A DNA stretch of 64,000 nucleotides from assembly GCA_963575745.1 (NCBI GenBank), contig CAUYUJ010000013.1, forward strand, positions 1-64,000, given 5' to 3'. The translations under genes and the position numbers were made by a program. This DNA is from Prorocentrum cordatum (Eukaryota). Shown here piece by piece: positions 2,473 to 60,720 of this stretch. The first letter of the stretch is position 1. The number at the start of each line of letters is the position of its first letter. The notes under the pieces are model-generated. The model had not been told where the DNA came from. It saw only the letters and a program-made list of their open reading frames with translations, and did not search any database.

Positions 2473-4041
2473 TGTAGCTGCGCGATTAGGTCGCGCAGGC
2501 TGTGTTCAAGGGCAGCCGCGTCCTCCTACTGCTCGAGGGTCCGCCATGGCAGTTGAAGATGTGCGCTTCGCGGGGTCAATGCGGAACTCCCCGACGTCGG
2601 GGTTCATCCTGTCGTCGTTGACGGGGCGGATGATTCGCTCGTCCTCCAGTCTGAATTCAATGCGGTCATTCACCATAGGCGTCGACGAAGGTGACAGCCG
2701 CGACCCGCGGGGCCTCGTGGCGGGTTCCCGGCTGGCTCTTGCCTCCGCGTCGTCGGCATCGCCCTTGGCCCCAGGCGGGGCCTTGCGCCGATGGCGGGAG
2801 CGCTGGTGGCAGAGGCCCCTCGGCGAGTCAGGTGGCCCCCAGTGGGCTTCTCGGCCGTCAAGGGTGCCGTCGTCGGCAACGTTGTAGCTGGCGGCGTCGC
2901 CGCTGGCGGCGCCGTCGCTGCGGCGCCCGTCGAGTTTGGCGGAGTTGCACCTGCAGTCGCCGCCGAAAGTGCCGCCGAGGAGGACGGCGCTGTAGCTGCG
3001 CTGGCGAGGCCTTCGCGGGCGCACTTCTGCTGCTGATAATTTCGCGGAGGATCCAGCCGTGGGGATAGGTGGAGGGGCCCTCGGCGACATGGCCCGAATC
3101 GCCAGGCGGGGGGGGGCGCCAGGGGGACCCCTTTGGGGGGATTCCCATCTTAACGCTCTTGTCAAGGCCAATGCCCGGGTCTACTCCGGGATGGAGCGCC
3201 CAGAGGGGCAGATCCTCGAACTACTCCTGGTAGCCGTACTGGGCGTCGTACTGGTAGTCGTGGTGGCTGGCGTAGCCGTGCTGGCTGTCGTACTGAATGC
3301 CGTGTTGGTAGCCGTACTTGTCGTCGAACTGGAAATGCTCGTGCCGCGAGGCGGATTTCAGCACGCTCGTGACGAGGTCGGAAATAGACTTCGGCGCCTC
3401 TCTGTCGAGGTTGTTGGTCTCCTGCGTGTTACGCAGGTCGTCGCTGAAGTTACCATGGTCGTCAGGATCCGGCGGCGGGCACGTCGTCTGTGGCGGGCTG
3501 CGCCCGACGAGATCCGTTACGATGTCCCTGGTGTCGGGTGCGACGTCTCTGCGCACTCCGCATGCGAGTCGACGCATGGCCGAAATCCGGGTTGTTGCGC
3601 TCCCTGTTGAAAGGGGGCAATGAACTCCACGTACAGTCGGGGCGTTGACCTGAGGAACCCTAAATCAGGAACGGGGCCCCTTTCTCCCGTACGTTGAACT
3701 TCGATTTCCCGTGGAAGACCTCAAGAAAACTGGGGGCAAAAACTGCAGAATAATCCAGGAACGCCGAGCCCCTCTCCAACGAGAAGGGTTCCTTCTTCAG
3801 GGCCCCGACGGTACTCGTGGGTCTCAGCCCTTGCGGGCAATTGGAGCTCGGCAGCAAGCCAGGGATCTCGGTGCACACGTTGGCCTCGAAATGCTTGCGG
3901 GCTGTGTTGGCGCTGGCGGTGGGCTGCTCGGTCGCGGGCTCCAAGCCGTTGGCCACTGCGCGAGGCCAGCGGGCGCCGCGCATGGCCGTCCGCCCCCGCT
4001 CGGGCCCCCCCACCCCTTCGGAAGGGGCTGGGCGGGAGGGC

Positions 4042-4056
4042 CTTGAGCCAAGTTGG
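4042..4056 (-). other. relict spliced leader (15 nt, CCAACTTGGCTCAAG)
   Basis: 13/15 match to the typical relict CCATTTTGGCTCAAG, directly 3' of a full SL. Confidence 0.85.
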
Positions 4057-4078
4057 CTTGAGCCAAAATGGCTATGGA
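4057..4078 (-). other. genomic copy of dinoflagellate spliced leader (TCCATAGCCATTTTGGCTCAAG)
   Basis: 21/22 match to DCCGTAGCCATTTTGGCTCAAG. The mismatch is at the CpG. It is not followed by a GT donor, so it is not an SL RNA gene. Confidence 0.93.
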
Positions 4079-4233
4079 CCTCCTCCTCCTCCTCCTCCTC
4101 CTCCAACTCCTCCTCCTCCTCCTCCTCCTCCTCCAACTCCTCCTCCTCCTCCTCCTCCTCCTCCGCCTCCTCCTCCTCCTGCCCCTCCTCCTCCTCCTCC
4201 TCCTCCTCCTCCTCCTCCTCCAACTCCTTCCCC
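4079..4233. repeat. (CCT)n microsatellite between the two divergent SLs
   Basis: Direct reading. Confidence 0.95.
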
Positions 4234-4255
4234 CCCGTAACCATTTTGGCTCAAG
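4234..4255 (+). other. genomic copy of dinoflagellate spliced leader (CCCGTAACCATTTTGGCTCAAG) at LINE 5' end
   Basis: CCGTAACCATTTTGGCTCAAG matches the SL core at 20/21. It is followed by ACGG, not GT. Confidence 0.92.
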
Positions 4256-4421
4256 ACGGGAACTCCTCCCCGTCCCGACTCCAGGGGCTCGAGGCCGAGG
4301 TGGAAGGGCAGCCCCTTCCCAGGCCTGGCTGCCTCGACCAGCGCGCGGCCAGCGGTGGCCACTTTGCAACCACGGCACTGCGAGTGACCTTCTCCTTTCT
4401 TCTTTCGCTCGTGCTCGCGCC

Positions 4422-5642
4422 ATGGCATGGGGCCGCAGTGCTTCCTTGCGCGGCGGGCGCAATGGCGCCTGGGGCCGCGGCAACAAGAAGCGAGCTGCCC
4501 GTGACAGTGGCGGTGATCGAGAAGATGACGTATGCTCTTCCTGCCGCCACTGGGACTTCAACCACCATGGGAATTGGTGCTGCTCTCGGTGCGGAGGCAT
4601 GTACCTCGCTGATGTCGGACAAGAGCCAGGAGGTGGTCAACCTGCTGGAGGTGCAGCTGGAGGGAACGGACAAGGGGGACCCGCTGATGATCCTCAACTT
4701 CGTGCAGCAGCTGCCGTCTTGCTCGCTGCCCGTCCTGACCTACATAATGTTCTTGGTAGATTGGTTCCTCCTCCTCCGCGTGAACCTGATGAGTGGACCG
4801 CGGCCCAGTATACTGATGCTGCCCGTCAGGAACACACTCGGCTCACAAAGGAGGTGGAGAACTACGCTAAGTCCGTGCGCCCGGCCGCCCAGGAGGTGCA
4901 CCATCGTGCTAACAAGGTTTCGAAGCTGGAGGAGCCCCTGCGCGACGCTCGGGAACACCACCAGCAGGCGGAGATCGATCTCCAGGAGCCCGAGAAGCAG
5001 AGGCGGAACGCCGACGACGCCCTGGGCCGCTTCTGCCAGGATGCCCGGGTGCCGGCGAAGCGGCCGGAGCACGCGCAAGCCGCCGAGGCCGCCCGCGCTG
5101 CCCGCGCCGCCCCCGCGCCCGCCGCCGCCCAGGCCCCGCGGGAGGCAGCGGCGGCCGCCCAGCCTGGCGGAGGCGCGGCCCCCGCCGCGGCGGCCGCTGG
5201 CCCAGGCACGGCGGCGCCCGCGGCGCCCGCTGCTGCTGCTCCTCGGGCCCGCATGGACGTCGACCTGCCTGAGCTCAACGCCATGGATGACGCCCAGATC
5301 CGCCGGTTCTGCCTGGACAGTAGTCCTCCCTACGGTCTGGTCGCCCGCTTCGCCGAGATGCAACGGCAGATCAACGAGGGCGTGCCATCTGAAGTGGGGG
5401 GCGACGCAGGATCCGAGCCTGGCGACCTTGCCCAAGATCGAGCTGACGAGGTGGCGGCCCTTCGCAAACGTTCATCGGAAGGTGCCTTGGCTGATGCCGA
5501 CCAGACGCGGATGGAGACCCTCATGTTCGAGAAGGCCAGCTCTCGGTCCGCGAAGAAAGTCCGTCGTGTGCAACGGGGCGTCGGCGCCAGCATCAAGGAG
5601 CTTTTCAAGGCGGCGCTCGCGGAGATGCCGTCGCTGATGTAG
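4422..5642 (+). CDS. LINE ORF1 protein (406 aa): C4 zinc finger, coiled coil, Ala/Pro-rich linker
   Basis: ATG at 4422 (MAWGRS...) is in frame with ORF 4068-5642. CSSC-x5-N-x6-CSRC resembles a RanBP2-type finger. Heptad-like segment ARQEHTRLTKEVENY...KQRRNADDAL. Ends immediately before the ORF2 endonuclease. Confidence 0.75.
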   Translation: MAWGRSASLRGGRNGAWGRGNKKRAARDSGGDREDDVCSSCRHWDFNHHGNWCCSRCGGMYLADVGQEPGGGQPAGGAAGGNGQGGPADDPQLRAAAAVLLAARPDLHNVLGRLVPPPPREPDEWTAAQYTDAARQEHTRLTKEVENYAKSVRPAAQEVHHRANKVSKLEEPLRDAREHHQQAEIDLQEPEKQRRNADDALGRFCQDARVPAKRPEHAQAAEAARAARAAPAPAAAQAPREAAAAAQPGGGAAPAAAAAGPGTAAPAAPAAAAPRARMDVDLPELNAMDDAQIRRFCLDSSPPYGLVARFAEMQRQINEGVPSEVGGDAGSEPGDLAQDRADEVAALRKRSSEGALADADQTRMETLMFEKASSRSAKKVRRVQRGVGASIKELFKAALAEMPSLM

Positions 5643-8600
5643 TGGGTCAGGGCTTCGCTCTCTATTCTGGAATGTAACTATTTGGAGCCCTCTTGCCAAA
5701 TCTTTCGCTGCTCAGTTGCGTAGTAAGGCTGGCGCCTCCTGTTCGCCGGACACCGCCAGCTCCCAGCCGATTTGAAGTCGGCCAAGCGTGATGTGGCCAC
5801 CGCTGGGTGGCGCCCCCATTTCCTCCCGGCCCCTCCCTCCCCCGGGAGAGGGGCCCGCGGTGGTGTCGGAACCGCGGTGCACAAAGGCATGTTGTCCAAG
5901 CGCTTTCTGGCCCAAGCTGGCCAACTTAGGGACGTAGGCATTTGCAATGGCTGAATGTTCCTGGAGCTCCGAACCCAATCCTGCGCGATGGCCGTCGGGG
6001 TTGTATATAAGGTAGCTGATCTGGGGGTCTCGGGCGTGAACATTACCAAGATGAAAGAAATTGCGTCTTTCGTGAGTACTTTCACCATGCATTGGTTCCT
6101 GATGGGGACTACAACATCAGTCTAGCTCATATGGAGGCCTGTGGTTGCTTGAAGATGGTTCGTGGTAAAGCTCTACCTCCAGCTGGCGTCTCTCTCACTT
6201 GCAGTAATGGAGGTGGATCCATGATTGACTGCTCGATTGCCTGTGACTCTTTGGCTCCGTACTTTCGAGTGTCCAAGTACCACGCTTCCCCCGGAGACGC
6301 ACTGCTGCATTGAGGTGCGGCTCCCGCATGAAGCCCTGGTCCAGACTATGTCCAAGCGTGTTCGGCCTCTCCCACTGCCCAGTCATGAGGGACCTGTGCT
6401 GCCGTGGGAGTACCATTTCCAGACTGCGCTGGCCGACTGGGCTCCACCTCGCGCGGGCCCTCCACCTCAACTTCCCCACATCCAGGCCAACCTCTCTGAT
6501 GACCTGACGTCGTCGTATCTGTTGTGCTCGCGTACTTACGAGAGGATGAAGCTTTCGATCTTAGGAGAAGACGAGGATAATGACCATCGAGGTCGGGGAG
6601 ATTTTGTTGATTTTCGCCTCACTACCTTGACTGATCATGCCTCACGCAGTGGCTGTGTTGCCCAGCCTTTGCTTACCTGTTGGTCCACCGTGTCGCAGAA
6701 ACTGCATGAGATGAGGGCGGCGGTGAGAAAGGGATACGGACGCATGCTTCTCTAACTATCTGCCCGACTGGGTGCCCTGGGACGCCGCCTTCTTCCGCAC
6801 TGTGAATGCCTCCCAGCTGATCAGACCGCCCAAGAGTGGCAGGCTCAGCTAGCGGACCTGGACCGTGTTCAGGCCCTGATAGATCGATGCAGTGAAGTCT
6901 TGTCCAGGGCATGGCAGCTCGCCCGTGTCTCAGCAACTAAGGCGATTAAGGATTGGCTGTCGCGGGCGCTCCCTCGAGGCGTCTCCAAGGCTCATGCCTG
7001 GCTCAGGCGTGAAGAGTAGGAGGGATTCGAATTTGTTGTTGCCCTCCAGGGCGCCCTCCAGCTCCCCCAGGAGATGAGGGCCCATCGTGAGAAGGTCTTG
7101 GGGTTTTTGGGCTGCCAGCCCGGCCCAGATACGACAGCTGGATGGGGCTTTGGATGAGCTCCGCTCGCGCGCCTTGGACTACGCGCCTGGGCTTCCTGAA
7201 ATCACCCCCCGCGGGACCTCCACCTCGCCTCCAGGGTCTTCTCTGAAACCACTGCGGTCGGGGTGGATGGCAAGAGGCCGCGTGATGTCTTGGATGTGAA
7301 TGATGGTGCTGCCGAAATGCTCGTGGGTTTGTCTAACGACTGCGAGGCTAGGATGACGTGGCGTGCCCACGCCCTCCTTGGGATTAGCTGTCTGCTCCCC
7401 AAGAGGAAAGTTGACGAGCGTCCTGCGTGCAAATGCCCCACCCTGCACCGTGTGCGCTGTAAAATGAGGGGGGAGTTTCTGGCAACCTGGAGTCGGAGTC
7501 ATATCGACTACTGGGATGACGCCATCAAAAGAAGTTCCGCCCTCCAAGCTGCGCTGCGTCGTGAGCTGTCCCATGAGGTGGCGAATTTCCAGGGTGCCGC
7601 GAGTGTCGCGATCCATTGGGATCTGAAGAAGTTTTTCGATACGGTCGCCCCTTTCAGGCTTGTGAAGTTCGCCATTGATCTGAACTCCCCCCCACACACA
7701 CATCACCTGTTGCATCTTGGGCTCCTTGGCCATGTTGCCCCGAGGATGCTCGAGAGAAGTGGCTTTTGCTCCCAGGTCATACCCGCAGGAGTTGGAGTCC
7801 TCCCAGGTTTCATGCAATCGATGTATTGGATGAAGATATATCTTTATCAGATATTGGATGATGTCCACAATCGCTACTTCTTTGCTACGCCTTCTGTGTC
7901 TACTAGATCGCATGTCGATGACATATCCCAGGTATGCCAGGGAGCGGACGACCTGGTTAGGCGTCAGATCGTTGCTGCTGCTGCACTCCTCGGCCTGTCG
8001 GTTGAAGCAGCCGAACTTGTTTTATCGAATACGTCTGCGGTTGTCGCTGACCGTCGGCCTCTCGCCCGCCTCGTGGCCGGCGACTTCAAAGCTGCTGGCT
8101 TACCTGTCAGGATGGAGGTCACGAGGGACTTGGGAACGTCTACCACGGCAGGCAAAAGGAGGACTTGTTCTATTGTACGCGTTCGATGGCGGAAGGCTGC
8201 GGCACGTTGCAAGCGAGTGCGCTACCTCACGTCCGTGGTTAAGAAATCTTCTAAGCTGTACTTACAAACCTGCAGTGCTCGCCGCAGGCACCTGGGGCCA
8301 CAATATTGCTGGTCTCTCTGGGGCCCAAGTCCAGAGCGCACGTGGGCAGGCGGCTGTCTGCTCCGGTCGTCGGCGTGCTGGCGCCCGTTCGACTACCATC
8401 CTGAGTGTCTATGGCGCCGCGCAGCACGACCCTATGTTCCGACTGCGGCGTGAACAATTAACAGGCTTTGTGGATCTTTGGAAGTCCCTCCCTGATAGGA
8501 AAATGTGTTGGTTTCGCAGGTTTGGCAAGCCCGTTTTCAGGAGTACATCAGTATTCCTAAGAACCAGGTTTGGGAAAAGGTCCGTGGTCCTGTCGGTGCC

Positions 8601-10258
8601 ACGGTTGCCGCTTTGCTCGGTTTGGAATGGTGTCCCCTGTATCCTGTGCAGTGGCGCGATAAGTTTGGCAATGACCTCTTCACTGAGGCCCCTGATTTTC
8701 CGTATACTCTGCGACTTGCTGTCAATGACACGTGTAGTAGTGTGGTCTGGCGCCAGGCGGCGCAGCATTACCATGGGTACGGAATCGCTTCGGGGGTTGA
8801 TTTCACCGTTCTCAAACAGGAGTTGAGTCATCTAGGAAAGGACCTTGATTTTGAGGGTCAGTCGTTGCTTTGGAGCATTGTCTCGGGGGGCTACTGGACT
8901 GATCAGCGGCTCCACGACGAGGGGTACCAAACGGGGTCCCAGGGCCGTTGCCCCCGATGTGGTGAAGTTGGTGAGACCCCCTTTTCATAGGTTTTGGGAC
9001 TGCAGGTGCAACGATTCCATCCCAGATCCTATCACGGAGCGCACTGCTCCACTTCGTGAGCAAGCCGCTCGTGATGTTGCTTGCCCTATTCTCTGGTGTC
9101 GCGGGCTAATGCCTCGAGATAGGTCGGTTGGACATCTCCCGATCGCGACTGGAGAAGTCATTGGTTGGGGATCGTTCGATGGGCTGCCTGTCCGCCAAGG
9201 GGGTGTTTGGGGCATCGATGGTTCGGGCGGTGAGCATGCTAAGGATGACAGACTAAGGCGTTTTGTGTGGGCCTGTGTCAGGCTCAGACCGACTTTGGAC
9301 AATATGTATGGTGGCGTCGCGGGGACTCTTGGTGGTGAGCAGTCTAGTCCCCGAGCTGGGTTATTAGCACTTATATGTGTCGATATACATACGGCCGTAT
9401 CTTGGTTTGCAGTGATTACTTCCCTGTTGTTCGAGCTTTTCGGCGTCCACGGGCCTTGTTGGCCAAGTCCGATATGTTAGACCTCTGGGTTCGCCAGTGG
9501 GAAGTCCTTGATGCGCGAGAGGGTGAAGTCGATCTCAGGTGGACCAAGAGTCACCCCACAAGCTCCCAGGTCAGCGCCCTCGGTCTCACGTTGATTGAGC
9601 GGCTCCTGAATGGAGCTGCCGACGCCTGTGCTGGGGAAATGGCCCGTCGTGCGGCCATTCCTCACAACTCGGCGGCCATCGCTTTTGCACAGGACCAGTT
9701 GAACAGAGACATTCTTCGGAGACTCCTGGATCCAGCGTGAGGTTGTTGTGTAGTGTCCTCGTGAGCGCACCTCGCACGCGCGTGTTGGGCATGAGCATGT
9801 GCGTGTGCGTGCGAGTGCGAGCAGTGCGCAGATCAGGCTAGAGCGTCTCTACGAGCAGGGACACTCCCCTGTCGAGCGGAGGACTCTTTTCAAGTGTAGT
9901 ATCTGCTGCTCCTGCTTCAGCAAGAAGGGGCCATTGTCGGTGTTCTGGCCTGGCCCCTGCTGTACTGGACGTTTTTCCCAGTATCGTGTGCCTCGTGAGG
10001 ATGATGATCCCGTTTTTGATCTCCCTGAGGCCGCTGGTTCTGGGGCCGCTGGTCACCCACCGGCCAAAGTGTGCCATGAGACCCACTCCCTTTCGGAGTT
10101 GAACGGTGTGCTGTTTTGTACTGTGTAGCAGTTTTGCGGTTTCCAGTGCCCGAAATTTGAAAAGCGAATGTCGGCCTCCGACCAAGAAAGGTCGTGGGGC
10201 ACTGGACCGATTGGGAAGAGGGCTCCCGCCCAAGTCGGGAATGGCCTTCCCTCTGTGA
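5641..10258 (+). pseudogene. LINE ORF2 pseudogene: apurinic-like endonuclease, reverse transcriptase, zinc finger, RNase H, Cys/His-rich C-terminus
   Basis: EN: LFWNV (~5662), GDYN (~6104), MIDC (~6221). RT: WDLKKFFDTV (~7617), GVLPG, HVDD (~7910). zf: CPRCGEVGET..HRFWDC (~8950-9003). RNase H: GIDGSGG, QSSPRA, CSD, WTKSH, NGAADACA (9210-9630). C-terminus HETHSL...LFCTV. Many stops and frameshifts. Confidence 0.9.
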
Positions 10259-10353
10259 GTATGGTGGGGCGGCCAGGCTAGCACCTGGGCACCGCGCTTC
10301 CGCCATAGCGCCATGGCTCCAACTCCTTCCCCAACTCCAACTCCAACTTATAT

Positions 10354-12628: not shown

Positions 12629-13735
12629 CGGTCCAGCGGCGCTGGACGTCGGCAGGGTCGGTGGCAAGGCACCCGCCGATCCGCTCGACCACGGGGCTCG
12701 CCCTGGGGCGGGCGCCTCCGAGGCAGCGGACCACAGCAGACGCAGTTCGAACGTCTGCGCGGCCCACGGCGCGGTCCGCCTCGAGGACTGAATCGTCCAA
12801 GAACTCCTGGCGGTCTCGTCGGAGTAGGGGGCGCGGGCGGCGCTGGAGGTTCAGGATGGCAGCCTCGGCCACGCAATCACGGCGACGGACCAAGTGCAAC
12901 GTGCGAGAGGCATCGATGACTGCGCCCTGCCAGAGCAGCTTCCGCGCCGGCGCCGCTGCACAGCGCCACGCGTATAGTCCCACAGCCAACCACTGTCGGT
13001 AGATCAGGCGGAGGTCGGGGGAGCGAGCCCGTCGCAAAGGGGCAATCTGACGAATGTACCACCACGCATCCCATGATATCCACTTCTTGTTGGGTTGGTC
13101 TTTCGGCCCCCGAAATGCACGCACGGCAGCACGGCGAACGGCGACGTTGACGGCATCCAGGTGGGAGTCGATGTCCAGGCCACCCCAAAATGAGGAGCGT
13201 GCTACTGCCGACCAGAGCTCCTACGGGAAAAATGCACACCGGGACTCGCACTGCAGCGACGCTTTGTTGAGGACGAGTGGGGGCGTCGCGGATGTACGGG
13301 GGCACGCCTGGGCCGCGCGCGGCGGTGACGTAATCTTGACTCGAGCTCCGACGGCGACGTGGTCGACCTGGGTGGAGAAAGTAAGAGCTACTGAATCCAA
13401 TGTCTGGCACCACGAGATGCCTGGAAGGGCGTGAGTGGGAACCAACACGTAGTCGATGCGCGACCAGTACCCTCAGGTGAACCGCCATGTCTGCGACGCG
13501 TGATCGAAAAACGTGTTGACAGCAGCCATGTCGAATGTCTGGAGGTAAGTCCGGAGGCGCTGGCCGTTGCAATTCTCCGCCTGCGAGGAGAAAGGTCAAA
13601 TTCCTGCGTCCAGTATGCTGCCCACGCGGGCTTTGTTGTCGATGAGTATGACAGTCATCCCAGGGTGCTTGACCCTTAACTTGATGGTGAGATTTGTGAG
13701 AGCATCCCACCAATCACACCGTACATCATCATCAA
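12600..13735 (-). pseudogene. LINE ORF2 fragment (C-terminal half of APE endonuclease + EN-RT linker), different family from the 4234 LINE
   Basis: Minus-strand motifs IDNKARVGS, ENCNGQRL, AVNTFF, TW, SRIDYVLVP, DHVAV, KKWISWDAW and RRWTDL..LWGG, with in-frame stops. Confidence 0.82.
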
Positions 13736-13739
13736 CATT

Positions 13740-14635
13740 CGGCGGGGTGAGGGTCCAAAAACACATAGGATTTGCCACATTTGTGAAATTTGCTGGCACC
13801 CCTCACGCAGATCGGCGGGGTCGGGGTCCAAAACAAATGGGATTTGCCACATTTCTGCAATGTGCTGGCACCCCTCACGCAAATCGGCGGGGTCAGGGTC
13901 CAAAAACATATAGGATTTGCCACATTTCTGACATTCGCTGGCACCCCTCACGCAGATCGGCGGGGTCAGGGTCCAAAACACAATGGATTTGCTACATTTC
14001 TGAAATTCGGTGGCACCCCTCACGCAGATCGGCGGGGTCAGGGTCCGAAAACCAAGGGGATTCCCAACATTTTCTGAAATTCGGTGGCACCCCTTACGCG
14101 GATCGACAGGGTCAGGGTCCAAAAACACATGGGATTTGCCACATGTCTGAAATTCGGCGGCACCCCTCACGCAGATCCGTACCCTGACTCCGGATCCGCC
14201 CTACTTCGGCTTTTTTTCCAACTTAAAATTGCGTCGGAAATCCACCTATAAGAGGCCGAAACAGTAGGGCGGAAACTGCTGCACCCAACATAAAATAGGG
14301 CGGAAATCCACAGAAACAGCAACAGAAAAGTAGGGCGGAAACTGGCATCAGCGGGGCTCGAAAAGTAAGGCGGAAATTCCAAGCCCTACTTACGAATTTC
14401 CCCAAAGTAGGGCGGATCCGGAGTCAGGGTAGGGTCAGGGTCCAAAAAATACACGGGATTTGCCACATGTCTTAAATTCGGTAGCACCCCTCACGCAAAT
14501 CCGTAGGGTCAGGATCGAAAAACAAACAGGTCCCGACACTGCTTCACGGCGGCGCCCAGACCTCATGATTTAGTTGTTGCATCTCCCATTATCCAAGACA
14601 GGGGGCCAGCGGCATGGGGCGAAGCCCTTACGGAT
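13740..14635. repeat. 73-bp satellite array with conserved hairpin-bearing terminus
   Basis: Unit ...CACCCCTCACGCAGATCGGCGGGGTCAGGGTCCAAAAACACATGGGATTTGCCACATTTCTGAAATTCGGTGG. The terminus GGGGGCC.GCGGCA.GGGGCGAAGCCCTTACGGATA is shared with the copy at 29449-30216. Confidence 0.9.
14182..14429. mobile_element. 248-bp MITE, TA target duplication (Tc1/mariner-type), inserted in the satellite
   Basis: Perfect 25-bp TIRs CCCTGACTCCGGATCCGCCCTACTT (14182-14206 / 14405-14429). TA at 14180-81 and 14430-31. The uninterrupted unit ATCCG-TA-GGGTCAGG is seen at ~14499. Confidence 0.92.
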
Positions 14636-16420: not shown

Positions 16421-16759
16421 GGCGCCGCTCGGCGACCGGCCCGCCAAGGCCTCCAGGCAGCCTGGTCCCCCACCCAGGGGTTGGCGCCGCGCGCGCGCCT
16501 CGCAGCACGCCGCCCAGCGCGTCCTCGGTCACGTCCTGCTCCACCAGCGCGTGGTACTCGGCGGCGGCCCCAGCGGAGACGGGCAGTATGCACAAACCTT
16601 CGACGGCCCGCGCGGATGTACTGGATCTGCGCTGGACCTACCTTCCAGGCGTAAGGAGCACGTCAGGGGCGGCGCCAGAGGCGCCGCTACGTGGGTCCAC
16701 GCGGACCGTCGAACATTTATGTTGACCTGTACGACCACCCTTCTGATGATTAGGTGTGG

Positions 16760-17130
16760 AGGGGGCCATCGGGACACCATCGGGGCACCATTTGGATACC
16801 ATCGGGGCACCATCGGGGCACCATTGGGCACCATCGGAACACCATCGAAACACCCTCGAAACGTCATCTGGACACCATCGGACACCATCGGAACACCATC
16901 GGGGCACCATCGGGACACCATCGGGGCACCATCGGGACACCATCGGGACACCATCGGGGCACCCCGTGGACACCATCGGGACACACCCAAGCCACCGCCA
17001 CGCCCTACCAACGGCGAGTACATTCCGCTCGCCCGCCCACGCAGCTTCGCCTCGCACGCCCGCACGCACGCGCGACACCGAAACCGATTTGCTGGTGGGG
17101 TTCTCCGTTTCACTGCGATGTCACCCCAAA
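16760..17130 (+). repeat. dispersed repeat with internal 11-bp GGGACACCATC array (related copies 40370-40680, 41890-42180)
   Basis: Shared GCCCGCCCACGCAGCTTCGC...CACGCGCGACAC...CTGCGATGTCACCCC downstream of the 11-mer array. Confidence 0.8.
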
Positions 17131-19404
17131 AACCTCCGATGCAGTTTTTTCATCTTCGAGGCAAGGACGGAGGAGCAGAGGGGTACCAATGTGAGCGGAA
17201 AACCGACTCGGGTGTGCTGGCCCGAAGGCGCCTCACGGCGCACCCACAGCTGAAGCCGGAGCCAACGCTGAGGTGCTCAGAAAAATGGACAGTGCCCACC
17301 CTGCAGGTTCGGTTGACAGCACATCGTTGAGCAGTACTGCAGCCTCCCCTGAGGTTCGACAAGAGGATAGCAGCCAAGAGATCGAGATCTGTAGCTCCAC
17401 TTCCACTGACCATCGCCGTTTCCTCTCACCAGGGGGTGAACACGTCGATGTGCAGACTGGAGGGGCAGGTCAGGGCGCGCGGGTCAGCACCTGCTTGGCA
17501 ATGGCCACACCCGGGTCCGTCTACTACGCGCGGCGGCCCTGGAGGGGCGACAATGGGGGAGGGCGAGGGGGGCCCTGCTGGGAGTGGGCCTCGGACCACG
17601 CGGAGCGCTCCCGGGGACCCCGGGCAGCCTCTCGGAGTGCCCAGGAAGGGCCTCGAAGAGGCGGAGGTCCTCAGGACCCTTTTCCTGCGCGCTGAGCTGT
17701 GGTCGTTCCCCCCCTCTGTGCTCTTGGTGGTTTTTGGAAACGGCAGTGCCGTGACTTCGTTTCCTGTTTCCGAACATCCTGATCTTGAGAATGAAAGCGG
17801 TAAAACAAGCGGTCGCCGAAACGAGAGAAAGATCTGCTCCAGGACGGAGGCCGGAGTCGGAACCCAGTAACACATGGCAGAAGAACAGACAAAGTTATAA
17901 ACGACGCCGCAAGAGGGAGCAAAAACGGCAAAACGAGCATGGAGAAACAGCTGCCCCGTGGGCTCCAAGAGCCACCAAGCCGACCAGCCATGACTGGGGG
18001 AGCTGTGGTCCTTACCCCCCTGGGGGAACCCATCGCGTCGACGATCTCTCGAGAGGGGTGTCGAAATCGATGGGTCCCCCAGGGGGGTAAGTCTGTGCTC
18101 GTGCCCTCGCCGTCGTCCTTCGCATTTTTTGGGGGGCCGGCGCGGGGCTCGCCTCGAGCCGACGCCTGGCGCCCACGCAGCGGCCACCTGTCTTTGAGCC
18201 CGAGGGGGGCCCCTCTCCTGCAGCACACCCTCTTTGGGCGCCCGAGTTATCCGATTCGGGTTCGGATTCCCGAAAAACGAACCCGAGTTGGCCCTGACCC
18301 GAGTTACCCCTGATGATTCGGGGCTCCCCTCCTCTTCACCGGCGGGCTCCTCTCGGGGATGGAGGACGGACCCCCCTTTAGTGGAACGCGGTTTAGTGAG
18401 AACGACCCGAGGCCCAAACCCGGCGGGCGCGAGCCTGGAAAATAACGGCCACGGCGCCCTCTCGAGAACCGAAAACGGACGATTCACGAATCGACGTGTC
18501 ACTGTTGGGGGTTCTGTCCACCTCCGATCCTCCCCTGGAAGTATCCGGGGGACCTCCTACAGAAGCCCTCGGCAGCCCAGAAAAACCTCCGCAGAGGCCC
18601 ACGGAGGCCTCCGAGGGCCTCCAAAGACCCCAGCAAGGTGCCAAAACAAAGCCGGAGTGAGACGCGTTCGCTGCTTTGACACTTCTGGGGGCCACGATCG
18701 AAGAGAACATCCGCGACCCTCGATGGAGGATCAAGGATCCGCGATCGATCCTTGAGGTCGAGGACGGTATCCTCGATCCTCGATACTTGTGGTGTCTTTT
18801 GACACCCACCAGCTCGAGGATCGAGGACGAGCTCCTCGATCGTCGGTCTGGAGGTCGAGCCTCCGTCTCCGGAGACACAAAACCTCCAGGAGGGAGGAAA
18901 GCACGCCTCCAGAGTGGAGGTCGAGCTTCCACTCAGGGACGTCTGGAATCCTCTGGGGCCCAGGAGCTCCCAGAGGGGGAGGGCGCGGACCGAACACTTC
19001 CTCCTTTGGGACTCCCGCCGGCTTCAGGGGCCCCTGAGGTCCCACGGAGCCTCCGAGGGGCCTCCAAGAGCAATGCCAGCACTTCGCTCTGGATGCCAGG
19101 CCTCAGTTCTGGAGCCTCCCTGCGCGGATCTCCTGGGTGGCACCAGAGGCGCCGCCAGCGCGGGGCCCAGCGCCGATCCAAGAAATCTGCGCGGACCTCC
19201 GAGAGTTTCTGCTCATGCAGTTTTTTCCTTCCTCGAAGGATAGAGAATTATCCCGGCAAACCAATCTAACAGCGATGTGTAGGAGCATATCTGGAAGCAT
19301 TCCCCTCAAGATTCAGATGAGAATCCAGTTGTAGAATTCTGCTGTTCTCGCAGTCGTAGTCGCATTCGCGATGACAGTCGCAGTGGCAACGGCAGTCGCA
19401 GTCA

Positions 19405-20627
19405 CAGCCTCAGCCTCAGCCTGCCTCAGCATCAGCCTGCCTCAGCCTCAGCCTGCCTCAGCCTCAGCCTCAGCCTGCTTCAGCCTCAGCCTCAGTCTGC
19501 CTTCAGCCTCGGCCTCAGCCTCAGCCTGCCTCAGCCTCAGCCTGCATCAGCCTCAGCCTCAGCCTCAGCCTGCCTCAGCATCAGCCTGCCTCAGCCTCAG
19601 CCTCAGCCTGCCTCAGCCTCAGCCTCAGCCTGCTTCAGCCTCAGCCTCAGTCTGCCTTCAGCCTCGGCCTCAGCCTCAGCCTGCCTCAGCCTCAGCCTGC
19701 ATCAGCCTCAGCCTCAGCCTCAGCCTGCCTCAGCATCAGCCTGCCTCAGCCTCAGCCTCAGCCTGCCTCAGCCTCAGCCTCAGCCTGCCTCAGCCTCAGC
19801 CTCAGCCTCAGCCTGCTTCAGCCTCAGCCTCAGTCTGCCTTCAGCCTCGGCCTCAGCCTCAGCCTGCCTCAGCCTCAGCCTGCATCAGCCTCAGCCTCAG
19901 CCTGCCTCAGCCTCAGCCTGCCTCAGCCTCAGCCTCAGCCTCAGCCTCAGCCTCAGCCTCAGCCTCAGCCTCAGCCTCAGCCTCAGCCTCAGCCTTGCAG
20001 CCTCAGCCTGCAGCCTCAGCCTCAGCAGCCTCAGCCTGCCTCAGCCTCAGCCTCAGCCTGCCTCAGCCTCAGCCTCAGCCTCAGCCTGCCTCAGCCTCAG
20101 CCTGCAGCCTCAGCTCTGCCAGCCTCAGCTGCTCAGCCTCAGCCTCAGTCATCAGCCTCAGCCTCCTCAGCCTCAGCCTCAGCCTCAGCCTCAGCCTGCC
20201 TTCAGCCTGCCTCAGCCTCAGCCTCAGCCTGCCAGCCTCAGCCTCAGTCTGCCTTCAGCCTCGGCCTCAGCCTCAGCCTGCCTCAGCCTCAGCCTGCATC
20301 AGCCTCAGCCTCAGCCTCAGCCTGCCTCAGCATCAGCCTGCCTCAGCCTCAGCCTCAGCCTGCCTCAGCCTCAGCCTCAGCCTGCTTCAGCCTCAGCCTC
20401 AGTCTGCCTTCAGCCTCGGCCTCAGCCTCAGCCTGCCTCAGCCTCAGCCTGCATCAGCCTCAGCCTCAGCCTCAGCCTGCCTCAGCATCAGCCTGCCTCA
20501 GCCTCAGCCTCAGCCTGCCTCAGCCTCAGCCTCAGCCTGCTTCAGCCTCAGCCTCAGTCTGCCTTCAGCCTCGGCCTCAGCCTCAGCCTGCCTCAGCCTC
20601 AGCCTGCCTCAGCATCAGCCTGCCTCA
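19405..20627. repeat. (CAGCCT)n hexamer minisatellite with repeated variant blocks
   Basis: Direct reading. The variant block AGTCTGCCTTCAGCCTCGG recurs several times. Confidence 0.95.
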
Positions 20628-20988
20628 GCATTCAAAATGTGGCCCGGGAATGGAGTTCTGGGAACTCGAAGAACACGAAGTGGCCTACAGTTGGCTCCGG
20701 GCATTCAAAATCATGCCCAGGAATGGAGTTCTGGGAACTCGAAGACCACGAAGTGGCCTACAGTTGGCTCCGGGCATTCAAAATCATGCCCAGGAATGGA
20801 GTTCTGGGAACTCGAAGACCACGAAGTGGCCTACAGTTGGCTCCGGGCATTCAAAATCATGCCCAGGAATGGAGTTCTGGGAACTCGAAGACCACGAAGT
20901 GGCCTACAGTTGGCTCCGGGCATTCAAAATCATGCCCAGGAATGGAGTTCTGGGAACTCGAAGACCAAGAAGTGCGTTACTGTTGGCT
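20628..20988. repeat. 73-bp tandem repeat, ~5 near-identical copies (unrelated to the 13740 satellite)
   Basis: GCATTCAAAA at 20628, 20701, 20774, 20847 and 20920. Confidence 0.95.
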
Positions 20989-22674: not shown

Positions 22675-23056
22675 AGAGGAGGAGGAGGGGGAGGAGGAGG
22701 AGGAGGAGGAGGAGGAGGAGGAGGAGGAGGAGGAGGAGGAGGAGGAGGAGGGAGGAGGAGAGAGGAGGGAGGAGGAGGAGGAGGAGGAGGAGGAGAGGAG
22801 GAGGAGGAGGAGGGAGGAGGGAGGAGGGAGGAGGGCAAGGGGAGGAGGCGCACCGTGGCCCGCGGCACGGTGCGCGGACGAGGGGGGGGGAGCTGTCGGG
22901 GGGGGATGCGGCGAGGGGAGGGTCCCGACGGCCGGGAGGCGTCGTGGACCTGGCCATGGTAGCCACACGAGCACACGCAGACGCAGACGCACACGCACAC
23001 GAACACGCACGCGCACACAAACACGCACACGCACACGCACACGCACACGCACACGC

Positions 23057-23098
<42 letters not shown>

Positions 23099-23297
23099 AC
23101 ACGCGCACACGCGCACACGCGCACACGCGCACACGCGCACACGCACACACGCACACCACGCACACACGCACACACACGCACACACGCACACCGCACACAC
23201 GCACACACACACACACACACACACGCGCACACGCGCACACGCACACACGCACACACGCACACACACACACGCACACACGCACACGCCACACACGCAC

Positions 23298-23346
<49 letters not shown>

Positions 23347-23397
23347 CGCACACGCACGCACACGCACACGCACACGCACACGCGCACGCACACACGC

Positions 23398-23432
<35 letters not shown>

Positions 23433-23454
23433 ACGCACACGCACACGCACACGC

Positions 23455-23506
<52 letters not shown>

Positions 23507-23550
23507 ACGCACACGCACACCAACAACACACACCACACACACACACGCAC

Positions 23551-23586
<36 letters not shown>

Positions 23587-23799
23587 GCATGCATGCACGC
23601 ACACACGCACACACGCACACACGCACACACGCACACACGCACACACGCACGCACACACGCACACACGCACACACGCACACCACACACACACACACACACA
23701 CGCAGCACACGCACACGCACACGCACACCACGCACACGCACACGCACACGCAACACGCACACGCACACGCACACGCACGCACACGCACACGCACACGGC

Positions 23800-23878
<79 letters not shown>

Positions 23879-23882
23879 ACGC

Positions 23883-23921
<39 letters not shown>

Positions 23922-23922
23922 G

Positions 23923-23967
<45 letters not shown>

Positions 23968-24008
23968 GACGCACACGCACACGCACACGCACACGCAGAC
24001 ACGCACAC
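22675..24008. repeat. (GAG)n tract (22675-22850) and ~1-kb (CA)n/(CACG)n alternating purine-pyrimidine tract (22965-24008)
   Basis: Direct reading. Confidence 0.95.
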
Positions 24009-29448: not shown

Positions 29449-30216
29449 CACCCCTCACGCAGATCCGCGGGGTCAGGGTCCAAAAACACATGGGATTTGC
29501 CACATTTCTGAAATTCGGTGCCACCCCTCACGCAGATCCGCGGGGTCAGGGTCCAAAAACGCACGGGATTTGTTACATTTCTGAAATTCGGTCAGGGCCC
29601 AAACACATAGGATTTGCTACATTTCTGAAATTCGGTGCCACCCCTCACGCAGATCCGCGGGGTCAGGGTCCAAAAACACAACGGATTTGCCACATTTCTG
29701 AAATTCGGTGCCACCCCTCACGCAGATCCGCGGGGTCAGGGTCCAAAAACACATGGGATTTGCCACATTTCTGAAATTCGGTGCCACCCCTCACGCAGAT
29801 CCGCGGGGTCAGGGTCCAAAAACACAGGGATTTGCCACATTTCTGAAATTCGGTGCCACCCCTCACGCAGATCCGCGGGGTCAGGGTCCAAAAACACAAG
29901 GGATTTGCCACATTTCTGAAATTCGGTGCCACCCTTCACGCACATCCATCGCAAGGCGTGGTAACCCAAACTGCGAGAACTCCCTCGGCCCTTTAATCGC
30001 AAGGTGTGGTAACCAAGCCCGTAAACCATACACGTCTTACCAATCGCCAGGTGTGGTAACCCCTCTTGTGATCAGTTGGTTTTGCTGATTGCGAATCGGC
30101 TTCGCATGAAGTTTCGATACTGCTTCACACAGCGCCAAGGCCTCATGACTTAGCTCTTCCATGGCCCATTCTCCGAGAGAGGGGGCCGGCGGCAGGGGGC
30201 GAAGCCCTTACGGATA
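29449..30216. repeat. second 73-bp satellite array (29449-29940) with the same hairpin-bearing terminus
   Basis: Same unit as 13740. TGCTTCAC...CCTCATGA.TTAG...GGGGCGAAGCCCTTACGGATA at ~30120-30216 matches ~14540-14635. Confidence 0.9.
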
Positions 30217-39839: not shown

Positions 39840-40718
39840 AGATCGATAGTGAGACCGATAGTGGGATGAAAAATAAGGACGGTAAAGAGTAAGGTCGATT
39901 GTGAGACCGATCGTGAAGTCGACTCACTGAGATCGATCGTGAGGTCGATCGTGAGATCGCTCGTGCGATCTATAGTTCCCCAATCAGTGCTTGCACTGAA
40001 GGGGTCCTAGCGGATATCGAAATATTTGGCGAACATTCAGGGTCAATTTCGGTAGGAGGCCGGGTTCCCAGGTCCGGGTTCCGAATTCCCAGGTTCCCCG
40101 TTTCTGGTTCCGGGCCGATTTCGATGGGCGGCGGAGTTTGGTGGGCGGCGGGGTTCTCGGGGTTTCACTATCGATACCACCATCCATCTCACTATCGATC
40201 TCACTATCGATCCCGGTACCGATCTCACTACCGATGTCACTCACATTATCTCGTTGCCAATCTATCGATCTCACGAGCGATCTTACTTTCGATCTCATCT
40301 AATGGATCTCAGTATCGATCGCACTATCGATGTCACTATCGCTAGCCTGACAATGCATAGCATCAAACACAGCACGGGACACACGCGCGCCACGGGACAT
40401 CACGAGACACTACGGGACACCATCGGGACTCTTTCGGGACACCAATGGGACACCATCGGGACACCATCGGGACACCATCGGGACACCACAGGGCCACTGC
40501 TGGCCAACACGGGGGACAGCAACGTTTGGATCGGTTTCGCCCCGGCAACGGAGAGTTCATTCCTCTCGCCCGCCCACGCAGCTTCGCTTCGCCCGCACGC
40601 GCGACACGAACGCGCATCCGAAACCAATATCCTAGTGGGGGGGTCTCCATTTCGCTGCGATGTCACCCCCACCCTCCGATATGTAGAAAGAGAGGGTGAG
40701 AAAGAGAGAGAGAGAGAG

Positions 40719-41870: not shown

Positions 41871-42221
41871 CTGACAACGCATAGCATCAAGCATAGCACG
41901 GGACACCCGCGCGCCACAGGACATCACGGGACACCACGGGACACCATCGGGACTCTTCCGCGACACCAACGGGACACCATCGGGACACCACAGGGCCACT
42001 GCTGGCCAACACGGGGGACAGCAACGTTTGGTTCGGCTTCGCCCCGGCAACGAAGAGTTCATTCCTCTCGCCCGCCCACGCAGCTTCGCTTCGCCCGCAC
42101 GCGCGACACGAACGTGCATCCGAAACCAATGTCCCAGTGGGGGGTCTCCATTTCGCTGCGATGTCACCCCCCAACCTCCGATATGTGTAAAGAGAGGGTG
42201 AGAGAGAGAGAGAGAGAAAAA

Positions 42222-48760: not shown

Positions 48761-49469
48761 CTGACAGTAGGTACTTCTGGAACCCCAGATCCCAGTCTAT
48801 TTCAAGCGCCTTCCTATTTCAAGAATCGATATGATCATGCTTGTTTAAAGTATTGTCTGGGAGTGCCTGGCCCCTATCTAGTTTATCCGCCTTCCTACTT
48901 CATGTTTCATATATTCTTCCGACCGACGTGTGCTGCTGGCGGCCGTGCTGGTGCCCTCACCGTGATTTTAAACGATGGGCTCCGGTCGGCTTGGTCCTTC
49001 GGGGGGTCGTGGTCTGGATCGGGTTGGTGGATGCTAGATGGCGGTCGGGTTGGTGATGGCCGTTTCTGTTGGTCGTGCTGGTGTTCGTTATCTTGGTCGC
49101 GTTGGTGGTCGTACTGATTATTTGCGATGGTGACCGCGACTCCTGGCAGCCACCCCCTGCCATTGTGCACGATCGAATACGCTCGACCTGGCTTGTGTTG
49201 GCGGTCATGCAAGTGCATTTGCGGGCGGTCGCGTTGATGGTTCTTGCTGCTGATCGTGCACTTGGCCGTCCTGGCGCGTCCTAGCGGTAGTCGTGTTGAT
49301 GGTCGCACTGATGGTCCTGCTGTTGGTCGTGATGGTGGGTTTGTTCGCGTGGTCTTTATATGTTAAACACGTGGTTTGCATGTGAGAAACGTCTGGTTGT
49401 CCCATGACAGGCGCATGGTCTGCAACACTGAAGCGTACAGCTTGCTTCTGCGATGAGCGAAGCGACAGA

Positions 49470-50792: not shown

Positions 50793-51136
50793 AGGAGGAA
50801 GAGGAGGAGAGGACGGGAAGAATGATGAGGAGGAGGAGGAGAAGGAGGAGGAGGAGGAGGGCCAGTGTAAACCCAAGAGTCATCAACGATGTTGGAATAA
50901 ACCCTCCCTCCAAACTCCCTCTTCACAAGCCCCTACACGGGTTCATTTCCACTGAAAGAACTGCCTCGTTGGAAGACAACCGTTTGAAGAACCGGAAGCA
51001 TGGCAATTGTTCCCGGGATTCCAACGCCACGGATCAACCTGACTGTTGCGTCTTGACGATTCTGAATCGTGCCAGAACGCCACTCCTGGGACTTCAGCAC
51101 CACGAATCAACGAAAATGCTGCACCCTCAGAATCAT

Positions 51137-57272: not shown

Positions 57273-57557
57273 CACTTCGACAGAGTGAGGCACTCACGGA
57301 GTCGTCCTCGCAGCTCTCGGGTGCCAAGCCGTTGAAGAAACTGTCCGATGTGGCCCCAGTAGCGCTGCAATCTCCGCACTCGCCAGAGCTGCTCGCACAC
57401 AATCCACCAACGTTCTCGTATCGAGAGGTTCCTCCTGCTGCGCCGCACCACAAGCCAATCAGCCTTACCACAAGGCTCTTCGTCGCTACTATCTTGGCGC
57501 CACGCGCCGGAAGATGTAGTGGTAGATGGAACGGTGCGGTCGCCGGATCGTATTGAA

Positions 57558-60715: not shown

Positions 60716-60720
60716 ATGCA

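What the first reader, a model, noticed from the sequence alone, without database searches (positions are those of the whole stretch)
4218..10332. Full-length LINE whose 5' end is exactly a trans-spliced leader, bounded by a 16-bp TSD
Seen: CTCCAACTCCTTCCCC (4218-33), then SL (4234-55), ORF1 and ORF2, then the same 16-mer (10317-32). Known: DinoSL is added to mRNA 5' ends, and SL copies in DNA mark retroposed transcripts. Inference: the element's RNA intermediate is trans-spliced, so it needs no internal promoter or precise start. Read-through transcripts could be re-spliced at the SL's own AG, regenerating a capped, full-length 5' end every cycle. This differs from NeSL/CRE/SLACS-type targeting of SL RNA genes, because the SL lies inside the TSD and no SL intron follows the 3' end. 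Caveat: the TSD is low-complexity.
Basis: partly seen in the sequence, partly recalled or inferred. Interest (0 to 1): 0.8.

Follow-up and report, generated by a model that had tools for sequence, protein, structure and literature searches.

The report
Spliced-leader-headed LINE copy in a dinoflagellate
A dead but structurally complete jumping gene (LINE) in a dinoflagellate genome starts with the 22-base leader that these cells splice onto their messenger RNAs, so it was copied back into DNA from a trans-spliced RNA.

Summary
An exact 16-mer flanks a 6,083-bp insert (4234-10316). It occurs only at those two places in the window and is not plain (CTC)n. The insert starts with a DinoSL-like 22-mer matching the consensus at 20 of 22 positions.

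The insert is a non-LTR retrotransposon: 166-nt 5' UTR, open 406-codon ORF1, then an RT-bearing ORF2 remnant. ORF2 is broken by many stops and frame changes, so "full-length" is structural only. There is no poly(A).

The SL lies inside the duplication and is followed by the UTR, not an SL intron. Only one other SL-like site exists in 64 kb. SL-gene targeting (SLACS/NeSL type) is therefore rejected.

One independent datum extends this beyond a single copy. Of six database ORF1 homologues covering the ORF1 start, only P0004 (40% identity) runs upstream of its Met. It begins with residues that back-translate to the 3' part of an SL, 58 codons before the Met; here the spacing is 60. Its DNA could not be seen.

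No other genomic copy could be fetched, so the "re-spliced every cycle" and "needs no promoter" ideas remain untested. My reading is a new variant of the known DinoSL-tagged retrocopies, of moderate interest. I found no explicit description in print.

The parts
4218..4233 (+). Left copy of the 16-bp target-site duplication
   Evidence: Exact 16-mer, 2 matches in the window at up to 1 mismatch. Unique within the pyrimidine tracts.
4234..4255 (+). DinoSL-like 22-mer forming the 5' end of the insert (20 of 22 to the consensus; base 1 is C, base 7 is A instead of G)
   Evidence: 1 mismatch over the 21 defined bases; 0 expected by chance. Sequence read.
4256..4421 (+). 5' UTR, 166 nt, joined directly to the SL. 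It starts ACGGGAAC, so no GT intron start follows the SL.
   Evidence: No significant fold (z -0.81). Its last ~22 codons align with the stretch upstream of the Met in P0004.
4422..5642 (+). ORF1: 406 codons plus TAG. Cys/His zinc-finger-like motif, coiled-coil-like stretch, Ala-rich linker, conserved C-terminal domain.
   Evidence: No in-frame stop. 18 homologues found with E up to 0.001. 5 of the 6 homologues covering the N-terminus start at the same Met. No Pfam family. Its openness is weak evidence of selection: GC is 67% and a second frame is open over the same span.
5643..6310 (+). ORF2 N-terminal remnant, apparently an AP-endonuclease-like domain, badly degraded
   Evidence: Weak only. 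tblastn of P0002 residues 144-195 to 6104-6256 gives 35% identity, E 0.16. P0002 has Pfam Exo_endo_phos and RVT_1. A GDYN...T.C...ID motif was read by eye. No Pfam hit on the fragments.
6786..8450 (+). ORF2 reverse transcriptase region, with in-frame stops at 7017, 7155 and 7197
   Evidence: Pfam RVT_1 E 4.8e-5, 23.6 bits, below the 29.6 cut-off. HMMER hit to P0002 E 9.9e-9. tblastn of P0002 425-898 to 6786-8240, E 1.3e-14. Stops listed.
8949..9003 (+). CCHC zinc knuckle after the RT, split by a frame change near 8985
   Evidence: Pfam zf-RVT E 0.031, weak. Motif read.
9205..9737 (+). Possible RNase H-like remnant, spread over two frames
   Evidence: Motif reading only (DGS..., SD......H..., N..AD). 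Pfam found nothing. Tentative.
9754..10128 (+). Cys-rich C-terminal stretch of ORF2, ending in TAG at 10126
   Evidence: Open frame. Resemblance to the Cys-rich C-terminus of P0003 by eye. No Pfam hit.
10129..10316 (+). 3' UTR ending ...GCGCCATGG, with no poly(A) or A-rich tail
   Evidence: Fold not significant (z -1.66). Its faint SL-likeness is chance level (score 15; a score of 16 or more occurs in 304 of 12,792 windows).
10317..10332 (+). Right copy of the 16-bp target-site duplication, continuous with an (AACTCC) mini-array and (CCT)n
2485..4077 (-). Context: a separate retrocopy on the other strand, head-to-head with the LINE and about 156 bp away in the same (CTC)n tract. It starts with an SL (1 mismatch) plus a 15-nt relic SL and has no poly(A).
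   Evidence: (4057-4077, minus strand). No similarity to the LINE's ends. No Pfam family for the two minus-strand ORFs scanned, 2509-3180 and 3663-4250, which lie largely within it.

Best explanation
This is one old, inactivated copy of a dinoflagellate non-LTR retrotransposon. The host is probably Prorocentrum, judged from the closest protein hit and about 60% GC.

Shown: the copy is a 6,083-bp insert bounded by a 16-bp target-site duplication. Its first 22 bases are the dinoflagellate spliced leader, joined directly to a 166-nt 5' UTR, ORF1 and an RT-bearing ORF2.

Inferred: the template was an element RNA that had received the SL by trans-splicing at an acceptor about 166 nt upstream of ORF1. 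Reverse transcription, presumably target-primed and by the element's own or a related enzyme, ran to the very 5' end of the SL. The cDNA was integrated into a (CTC)n/(AACTCC)n microsatellite. Priming did not use a poly(A) tail.

Inferred, weaker: trans-splicing at this position is a regular feature of the ORF1 family, not a one-off. The only database homologue that extends upstream of its Met also starts with an SL-like peptide at almost the same distance. SL trans-splicing would then do for this LINE what an internal promoter or a 5' ribozyme does for others. It would cut a defined, capped 5' end out of read-through transcripts.
For: - TSD: exact and unique, placed at both complexity boundaries.
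- SL: 20 of 21 defined bases, 0 expected by chance. It is followed by ACGGG, not an intron.
- No LTRs and no second copy in the window.
- RT homology to APE+RT proteins.
- ORF1 family: 18 hits, one labelled Prorocentrum cordatum at 85% identity.
- ORF1 start: of the 6 homologues covering it, 5 start at the Met and are uninformative. The single one that runs upstream (P0004, no start Met) begins H-V-G-S-S. With favourable codon choice this matches 13 of 14 bases of SL positions 9-22. It lies 58 codons before its Met, against H-F-G-S-R 60 codons before the Met here.
- Passages of PMC7245778 say most DinoSL transcripts are recovered starting at SL position 2 or 8, which fits P0004's start. They also cite a reported GTT-variant SL.
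- Passages of PMC5585692 report the GO term 'RNA-dependent DNA replication' enriched among DinoSL-relict genes. RT genes with SL relicts upstream have therefore been counted before, without this reading.
Against: - Only one genomic copy was seen.
- P0004's nucleotide sequence and origin (DNA or RNA) are unknown, so its SL is a back-translation.
- The SL here deviates at two positions, and base 1 is C, which the D of the consensus excludes.
- There is no poly(A), although mature dinoflagellate mRNAs are polyadenylated (general knowledge). The template may therefore not have been a standard mature mRNA, or priming is 3'-UTR-specific.
- No relic SL is present. This fits a first-generation copy as well as precise re-splicing.
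- The endonuclease type is only weakly supported.
Confidence: 0.7

Rival explanations
1. Incidental SL. The element normally makes its RNA another way, for example from an internal promoter. In this case a copy lying inside a host transcription unit was trans-spliced at a cryptic AG in its 5' region. It was then retroposed like any processed pseudogene, so the SL is not part of the family's life cycle and the copy is slightly 5'-truncated.
For: Only one DNA copy was seen. SL-tagged retrocopies of ordinary genes are very common in dinoflagellates (passages). One lies 156 bp away.
Against: P0004 has an SL-like start at nearly the same distance from ORF1 in a 40%-identical homologue. LINE proteins tend to copy the RNA that encoded them (cis preference; general knowledge, not tested here), and a translated RNA in this host should be SL-capped.
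Confidence: 0.17
2. Template switch. Reverse transcriptase reached the 5' end of an SL-less element RNA and jumped onto an SL RNA or another SL-capped mRNA. This would make a chimeric retrocopy, as in U6/L1 chimeras.
For: Chimeric LINE retrocopies are known in mammals (recalled, not from a call). The junction alone cannot exclude this.
Against: A jump would have to land exactly at SL base 22. A jump onto SL RNA should bring in intron sequence, which is absent. P0004 shows the same arrangement.
Confidence: 0.07
3. Pre-existing SL. The SL belonged to the target, as a relic of an older retrocopy, and the LINE landed next to it. On this view the 16-bp repeat is a microsatellite coincidence.
For: The site is low-complexity. 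About 6% of random pairs in such tracts give an exact repeat of 16 bp or more. Another SL sits 156 bp away.
Against: This 16-mer is not (CTC)n and is unique. It matches only at the exact 3' boundary, while neighbouring 16-mers have no match. The left copy lies upstream of the SL.
Confidence: 0.04
4. SL-gene-targeting LINE of the SLACS/CZAR/CRE or NeSL type, inserted into an SL RNA gene.
For: An SL sequence abuts the element.
Against: The whole SL lies inside the duplication. It is followed by the UTR, not the SL intron. No SL remainder lies at the 3' side. The flanks are microsatellite. Only 2 SL-like sites exist in 64 kb and there is no array. Rfam found no small-RNA gene.
Confidence: 0.01

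Closest known systems
DinoSL-tagged retrocopies or retrogenes ('recycled processed cDNAs'; Slamovits and Keeling 2008, as described in passages of PMC6050394, PMC7245778 and PMC12014239; counted genome-wide in PMC5585692)
   Same: A genomic SL directly upstream of a transcript's 5' UTR marks reverse transcription of a trans-spliced RNA. The neighbour at 2485-4077 is a textbook case with SL plus relic.
   Different: Here the retroposed RNA encodes the retrotransposition machinery itself. A resolvable 16-bp TSD is present. The SL is complete and single rather than a truncated relic. The passages I read do not describe a LINE with an SL head. PMC5585692 only notes GO enrichment of 'RNA-dependent DNA replication' among SL-relict genes.
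SL-gene-specific LINEs: SLACS, CZAR and CRE of trypanosomatids, NeSL-1 of nematodes (recalled from general knowledge and named in the finding; no paper on them was read here)
   Same: A LINE physically joined to spliced-leader sequence.
   Different: Those elements insert at a fixed position inside SL RNA genes and carry a restriction-like endonuclease. This copy sits in a microsatellite. The whole SL lies inside its TSD, no SL gene parts are nearby, and its relatives carry an AP-type endonuclease.
L1Tc/ingi of trypanosomatids: Pr77 internal promoter plus an HDV-like ribozyme at the 5' end (abstracts of PMC1874656, PMC3185411 and PMC3383444 seen in the listings)
   Same: A LINE in a host with trans-splicing that must obtain a defined 5' end, in part by release from co-transcripts.
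   Different: L1Tc makes unspliced transcripts from its own promoter and ribozyme. Here no ribozyme or known RNA family is found, and the 5' end is the host SL.
SL-containing retrotransposons noted in Schistosoma mansoni (PMC5832876, passages)
   Same: Genome-encoded SL exon sequences merged to transposable elements. The authors suggest they might be trans-spliced, retro-transcribed elements.
   Different: That is a different phylum and a different SL. The authors gave no TSD or junction anatomy and raised assembly chimerism as an alternative.

Membership tests
Non-LTR (LINE-type) retrotransposon | Reverse transcriptase of the LINE type | tested here: met
   RVT_1 E 4.8e-5, below the Pfam cut-off. 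Homology to P0002, an APE+RT protein: E 9.9e-9 and tblastn E 1.3e-14 over 510 aa.
Non-LTR (LINE-type) retrotransposon | No long terminal repeats; bounded by a target-site duplication | tested here: met
   The element matches only itself in the window. 16-bp exact TSD.
Non-LTR (LINE-type) retrotransposon | AP-type endonuclease N-terminal to the RT | tested here: inconclusive
   Only a 52-aa tblastn match at E 0.16 and motifs read by eye. No Pfam hit on the fragments.
Non-LTR (LINE-type) retrotransposon | Intact coding capacity (autonomous copy) | tested here: not met
   14 stops lie in the ORF1 frame between 5643 and 8990, including 3 inside the RT alignment. At least four frame changes are needed.
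L1-like LINEs | 3' poly(A) or A-rich tail | tested here: not met
   The element ends ...GCGCCATGG directly at the TSD.
SL-gene-specific LINEs (SLACS/CZAR/CRE, NeSL-1) | Insertion at a fixed site inside an SL RNA gene, with SL gene parts on both sides or an SL gene array nearby | tested here: not met
   The flanks are (CTC)n microsatellite. The SL is whole and inside the TSD, with no intron after it. Only 2 SL-like sites in 64 kb.
SL-gene-specific LINEs (SLACS/CZAR/CRE, NeSL-1) | Restriction-like endonuclease C-terminal to the RT | not tested
   No dedicated search was made. The fragments after the RT gave no Pfam family. The two relatives examined, P0002 and P0003, carry Exo_endo_phos at the N-terminus.
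DinoSL-tagged retrocopy | Genome-encoded DinoSL or relic directly 5' of the transcribed unit | tested here: met
   20 of 21 defined bases at 4235-4255, immediately followed by the UTR.
DinoSL-tagged retrocopy | Evidence that the unit's RNA is actually trans-spliced (SL joined to the UTR in RNA) | not testable with these tools
   No sequencing run could be listed. No genome is held. P0004 is suggestive only.

The most novel reading that the evidence does not exclude
SL trans-splicing is the obligatory 5'-end-forming step of a dinoflagellate-wide LINE family, defined by this zinc-finger ORF1. Each new copy is promoter-less but carries a fossil SL. Its AG acceptors let read-through transcripts be re-capped, and its T-run may also help, since Song et al. 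proposed it as a promoter-like motif. The element would then renew a complete 5' end each cycle. In this copy the internal AG is lost, so the first AG after a 150-nt pyrimidine tract is the SL's last two bases. The same machinery, which demonstrably copies SL-capped RNA to its very end and leaves TSDs, would be the long-sought engine of the massive SL-tagged retrogene recycling in dinoflagellates.
Probability: 0.3. Interest if true: 0.75.

Novelty: new variant of a known kind. Interest (0 to 1): 0.5.

Why it matters
Dinoflagellate genomes are full of retrocopies tagged by the spliced leader. Passages of the review PMC6050394 state that it is unknown which retroelement does the reverse transcription, and favour Ty1/copia.

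A LINE copy that itself begins with a complete SL inside a clean 16-bp target-site duplication bears on that question. It shows that a non-LTR type of integration has handled SL-capped RNA end to end in this lineage. It also gives a concrete candidate family, the zinc-finger ORF1 plus RT, to test.

The finding also suggests a different solution to the LINE 5'-end problem. Mammalian L1 uses an internal promoter, and R2 and L1Tc use a 5' ribozyme. This element may borrow the host's trans-splicing. With the public genome and RNA data of the host, both ideas become a straightforward census.

A specialist would not be astonished. In a host that is said to trans-splice nearly all mRNAs, a translated LINE RNA is expected to carry the SL.

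Tried and rejected
Searches for more copies or reads:
- Whole-genome search: no genome is held.
- Metagenome contigs: a CpG-tolerant 24-nt pattern of the first UTR bases gave 0 matches. An ORF1 protein scan matched a pattern in 323 stretches, none confirmed.
- Viral contigs with a 6-sequence ORF1 N-terminal alignment: 37 stretches, none confirmed.
- Prokaryote genome contigs: 9 stretches, none confirmed.

Protein searches:
- By a coordinate slip, the first search and protein 1 used the wrong frame (4423). That frame is also open. The search still found P0001, because that gene model mixes both frames.
- The SL+UTR+ORF1 N-terminus search in the 90%-cluster database found nothing.
- The source of P0004 is unknown. 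The Atlas holds P0004 letter for letter but gave no usable relatives.

Ideas rejected:
- The LINE's 3' end mimics an SL: alignment score 15, while a score of 16 or more occurs in 304 of 12,792 windows.
- The neighbouring retrocopy is a non-autonomous partner sharing the LINE's ends: scores 16 and 22, against shuffle means of about 18.6-18.8 and maxima of 32 and 30.
- Structured 5' or 3' UTR: z -0.81 and -1.66.
- Ribozyme or other known RNA: 0 Rfam matches at E up to 1.
- Solved-structure relatives of the RT by sequence: none relevant.

Other:
- Earlier findings of this scan: nothing relevant in five look-ups.
- Literature: five full-text searches and passages of 13 papers gave no explicit description of an SL-headed LINE in dinoflagellates. 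Subscription papers, including Slamovits and Keeling 2008 and the first Symbiodinium genome papers, were not read. No supplementary tables were opened, including those of PMC5585692.


Full report
**1. Observation.** Window 4218-4233 and 10317-10332 carry the identical 16-mer CTCCAACTCCTTCCCC. It has only these two matches in 64 kb even with one mismatch allowed, and none is expected in 100 shuffles.

Among random position pairs inside the window's pyrimidine tracts, about 6% show an exact flanking repeat of 16 bp or more. Those cases come from pure (CTC)n. The observed 16-mer contains the variant AACTCCTTCCCC. It has one single match in the right-hand tract, and the ten 16-mers ending at 4223-4232 have none. 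The right copy starts exactly where complex sequence ends.

Removing the insert and one copy gives a continuous (CTC)n-CC-AACTCC-TTCCCC-AACTCC-AACTCC-AACTTA site. I accept the duplication as real.

**2. The spliced leader.** Positions 4235-4255 match 20 of the 21 defined bases of the dinoflagellate spliced leader. That consensus is printed in PMC7245778, PMC8045281 and PMC5585692. No such match is expected by chance.
- The single mismatch turns the internal ...GTAG into GTAA.
- Base 1 (4234) is C, although the consensus D allows A, G or T. The match is therefore 20 of 22.
- The SL is followed by ACGGGAAC, not by an intron-like GT.

The only other SL-like site in the window is on the minus strand at 4057-4077.

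**3. Anatomy of the insert (4234-10316, 6,083 bp).**
- The 5' UTR is 166 nt (4256-4421).
- ORF1 runs 4422-5642 and is open for 406 codons. At 67% GC a second frame is open across the same span, so openness alone says little.
- ORF1 has no Pfam family but belongs to a real family. An exhaustive HMMER search found 18 proteins with E up to 0.001. The family shares a Met-(Ala/Ser)-Trp-Arg start, a Cys/His zinc-finger-like motif and a conserved C-terminal domain.
- The best hit, P0001, is labelled Prorocentrum cordatum and is 85% identical over the C-terminal half. This fits the window's roughly 60% GC and the 59.7% reported for that genome (PMC10666404, passages).
- Downstream lies an RT. Pfam RVT_1 gives E 4.8e-5, below the cut-off. 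HMMER gives E 9.9e-9 to P0002, which carries Exo_endo_phos plus RVT_1. tblastn gives E 1.3e-14 over 510 residues.
- A CCHC knuckle follows (zf-RVT, E 0.031).
- An AP-endonuclease remnant (E 0.16) and an RNase H-like remnant are read mostly by eye and are tentative.
- ORF2 is dead. There are 14 stops in the ORF1 frame between 5643 and 8990, three of them inside the RT alignment, and at least four frame changes.
- The element ends ...GCGCCATGG with no A-tail.
- It has no LTRs and no second copy in the window.

It is therefore a structurally complete but inactivated non-LTR retrotransposon.

**4. What the SL means.** The whole SL lies inside the duplication, so it came in with the cDNA. It is joined to the UTR at base 22, which is what trans-splicing produces. 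A jump of the reverse transcriptase onto SL RNA should have brought in intron sequence.

The target is a microsatellite, not an SL RNA gene. No SL remainder is found at the 3' side, there is no SL array and no small-RNA gene. The SLACS/CZAR/CRE or NeSL type of SL-gene targeting is therefore rejected.

**5. Is it more than one copy?** No further genomic copy could be obtained:
- no genome is held;
- no sequencing run was listed;
- two metagenome scans, one viral-contig scan and one prokaryote-contig scan found no relative.

Protein data give one independent datum. I searched with the translation that runs from the SL through the UTR into ORF1, which is the same frame with no stop. Six homologues cover the ORF1 start. 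Five begin at the Met and say nothing about the upstream sequence.

The sixth, P0004, is 374 aa, 40% identical and has no start Met. It extends 58 codons upstream and begins H-V-G-S-S. With favourable codon choice this is CAT GTT GGC TCA AGY, matching 13 of 14 bases of SL positions 9-22. Here the same frame reads H-F-G-S-R, 60 codons before the Met. The last ~22 upstream codons also align.

A start at SL position 8 is what PMC7245778 reports for many SL-bearing transcripts, and that paper cites a reported GTT-variant SL. I could not see P0004's DNA or learn whether it comes from DNA or RNA. This is therefore one of one informative homologue: suggestive, not proof.

**6. Mechanism.**
- Shown: an SL-headed LINE cDNA was integrated with a 16-bp duplication and no poly(A).
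- Inferred (about 0.7): the template was an element RNA trans-spliced about 166 nt upstream of ORF1, and target-primed reverse transcription reached the first SL bases.
- Inferred, weaker (about 0.5): this acceptor is a conserved feature of the family. Trans-splicing would then define and cap the 5' end from read-through transcripts, a role played by an internal promoter and HDV-like ribozyme in L1Tc (abstracts).

The 'self-renewal' idea is untested, and two observations bear on it.
- In this copy the internal AG is mutated. The first AG after about 150 nt of pyrimidines is therefore the SL's last two bases, and splicing there would regenerate the same RNA.
- The neighbouring retrocopy at 2485-4077 on the minus strand carries SL plus a 15-nt relic. 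Re-splicing at the internal AG does therefore occur in this genome and leaves a scar that the LINE copy lacks.
- A single SL fits a first-generation copy equally well.

**7. The neighbour.** The minus-strand retrocopy sits head-to-head with the LINE, 156 bp away in the same (CTC)n tract. It also lacks poly(A). It shares no end sequence with the LINE and has no recognisable domain. Its flanks are pure (GAG)n, so its duplication cannot be resolved. The two inserts have opposite orientation relative to the tract, so no strand-specific target preference can be claimed.

**8. Comparison with the literature.**
- SL-tagged retrocopies are well known (passages).
- PMC5585692 found 'RNA-dependent DNA replication' enriched among SL-relict genes. 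RT genes with SL upstream were therefore implicitly counted, but were read as a sign of high retroelement expression.
- PMC6050394 says the mediating retroelement is unknown and favours Ty1/copia.
- PMC5832876 noted six SL exon sequences merged to transposable elements in Schistosoma and suggested trans-spliced retro-transcribed elements, with assembly chimerism as an alternative.
- In five full-text searches I found no description of a dinoflagellate LINE whose 5' end is the SL inside a TSD. Subscription papers were not read, and I opened no supplementary tables.

**9. Verdict.** The family-wide and self-renewing claims remain open.

This is a new variant of a known kind. In a host that trans-splices most mRNAs it is not very surprising. 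It does offer a concrete handle on which machinery makes dinoflagellate retrocopies. Interest 0.5.

Noticed in passing
window 2485-4077 (minus strand): A second retrocopy, head-to-head with the LINE in the same (CTC)n tract. It starts with an SL (1 mismatch, first base T) plus a 15-nt relic SL with two mismatches. It has no poly(A), short ORFs without a Pfam family, and flanks of pure (GAG)n, so its TSD cannot be resolved.
   Followed up: partly
window 51367-57567 (minus strand); arrays at 49438-50830 and 60719-61441: An uninterrupted 2,067-codon ORF with a Ty1/copia-type RT (Pfam RVT_2, E 2.8e-11). It is flanked on both sides by arrays of an 89-bp tandem repeat that are 76-84% alike. These may be repeat-bearing LTRs. 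No SL-like site lies nearby.
   Followed up: partly
window 4234-5640: Two reading frames are open across the whole ORF1 region. The database gene model P0001 (labelled Prorocentrum cordatum) switches from the wrong frame to the ORF1 frame part-way. It looks like an annotation artefact on a paralogous copy.
   Followed up: partly
window 5640-5720: The ORF2 N-terminal remnant continues in the same frame directly after the ORF1 TAG, with no ATG in between. ORF1 homologues end at the same place, so the stop looks native. How ORF2 would be translated (readthrough or reinitiation) is open.
   Followed up: no
protein P0003, residues about 18-28 (not in the window): This distant APE+RT relative (1,804 aa) has an ...NPGP motif near its N-terminus resembling a 2A 'self-cleaving' peptide. 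Read by eye and not tested.
   Followed up: no
window 16730-17017, 40384-40530, 41897-42021; 19310-20690; 22900-24000; 58334-60766; 13724-14231 and 29449-30000: The window is dense in tandem arrays. An 11-bp unit occurs at three separate places. There are also a 22/16-bp CTCAGCC-type array, a long (CA)/(CACG) tract, a ~190-210-bp satellite, and a 72-73-bp repeat at two loci 15 kb apart.
   Followed up: no
window 5921-5960: This is the best SL-like gapped match outside the two real SLs (score 23), and it lies inside the ORF2 remnant. It is probably chance.
   Followed up: no
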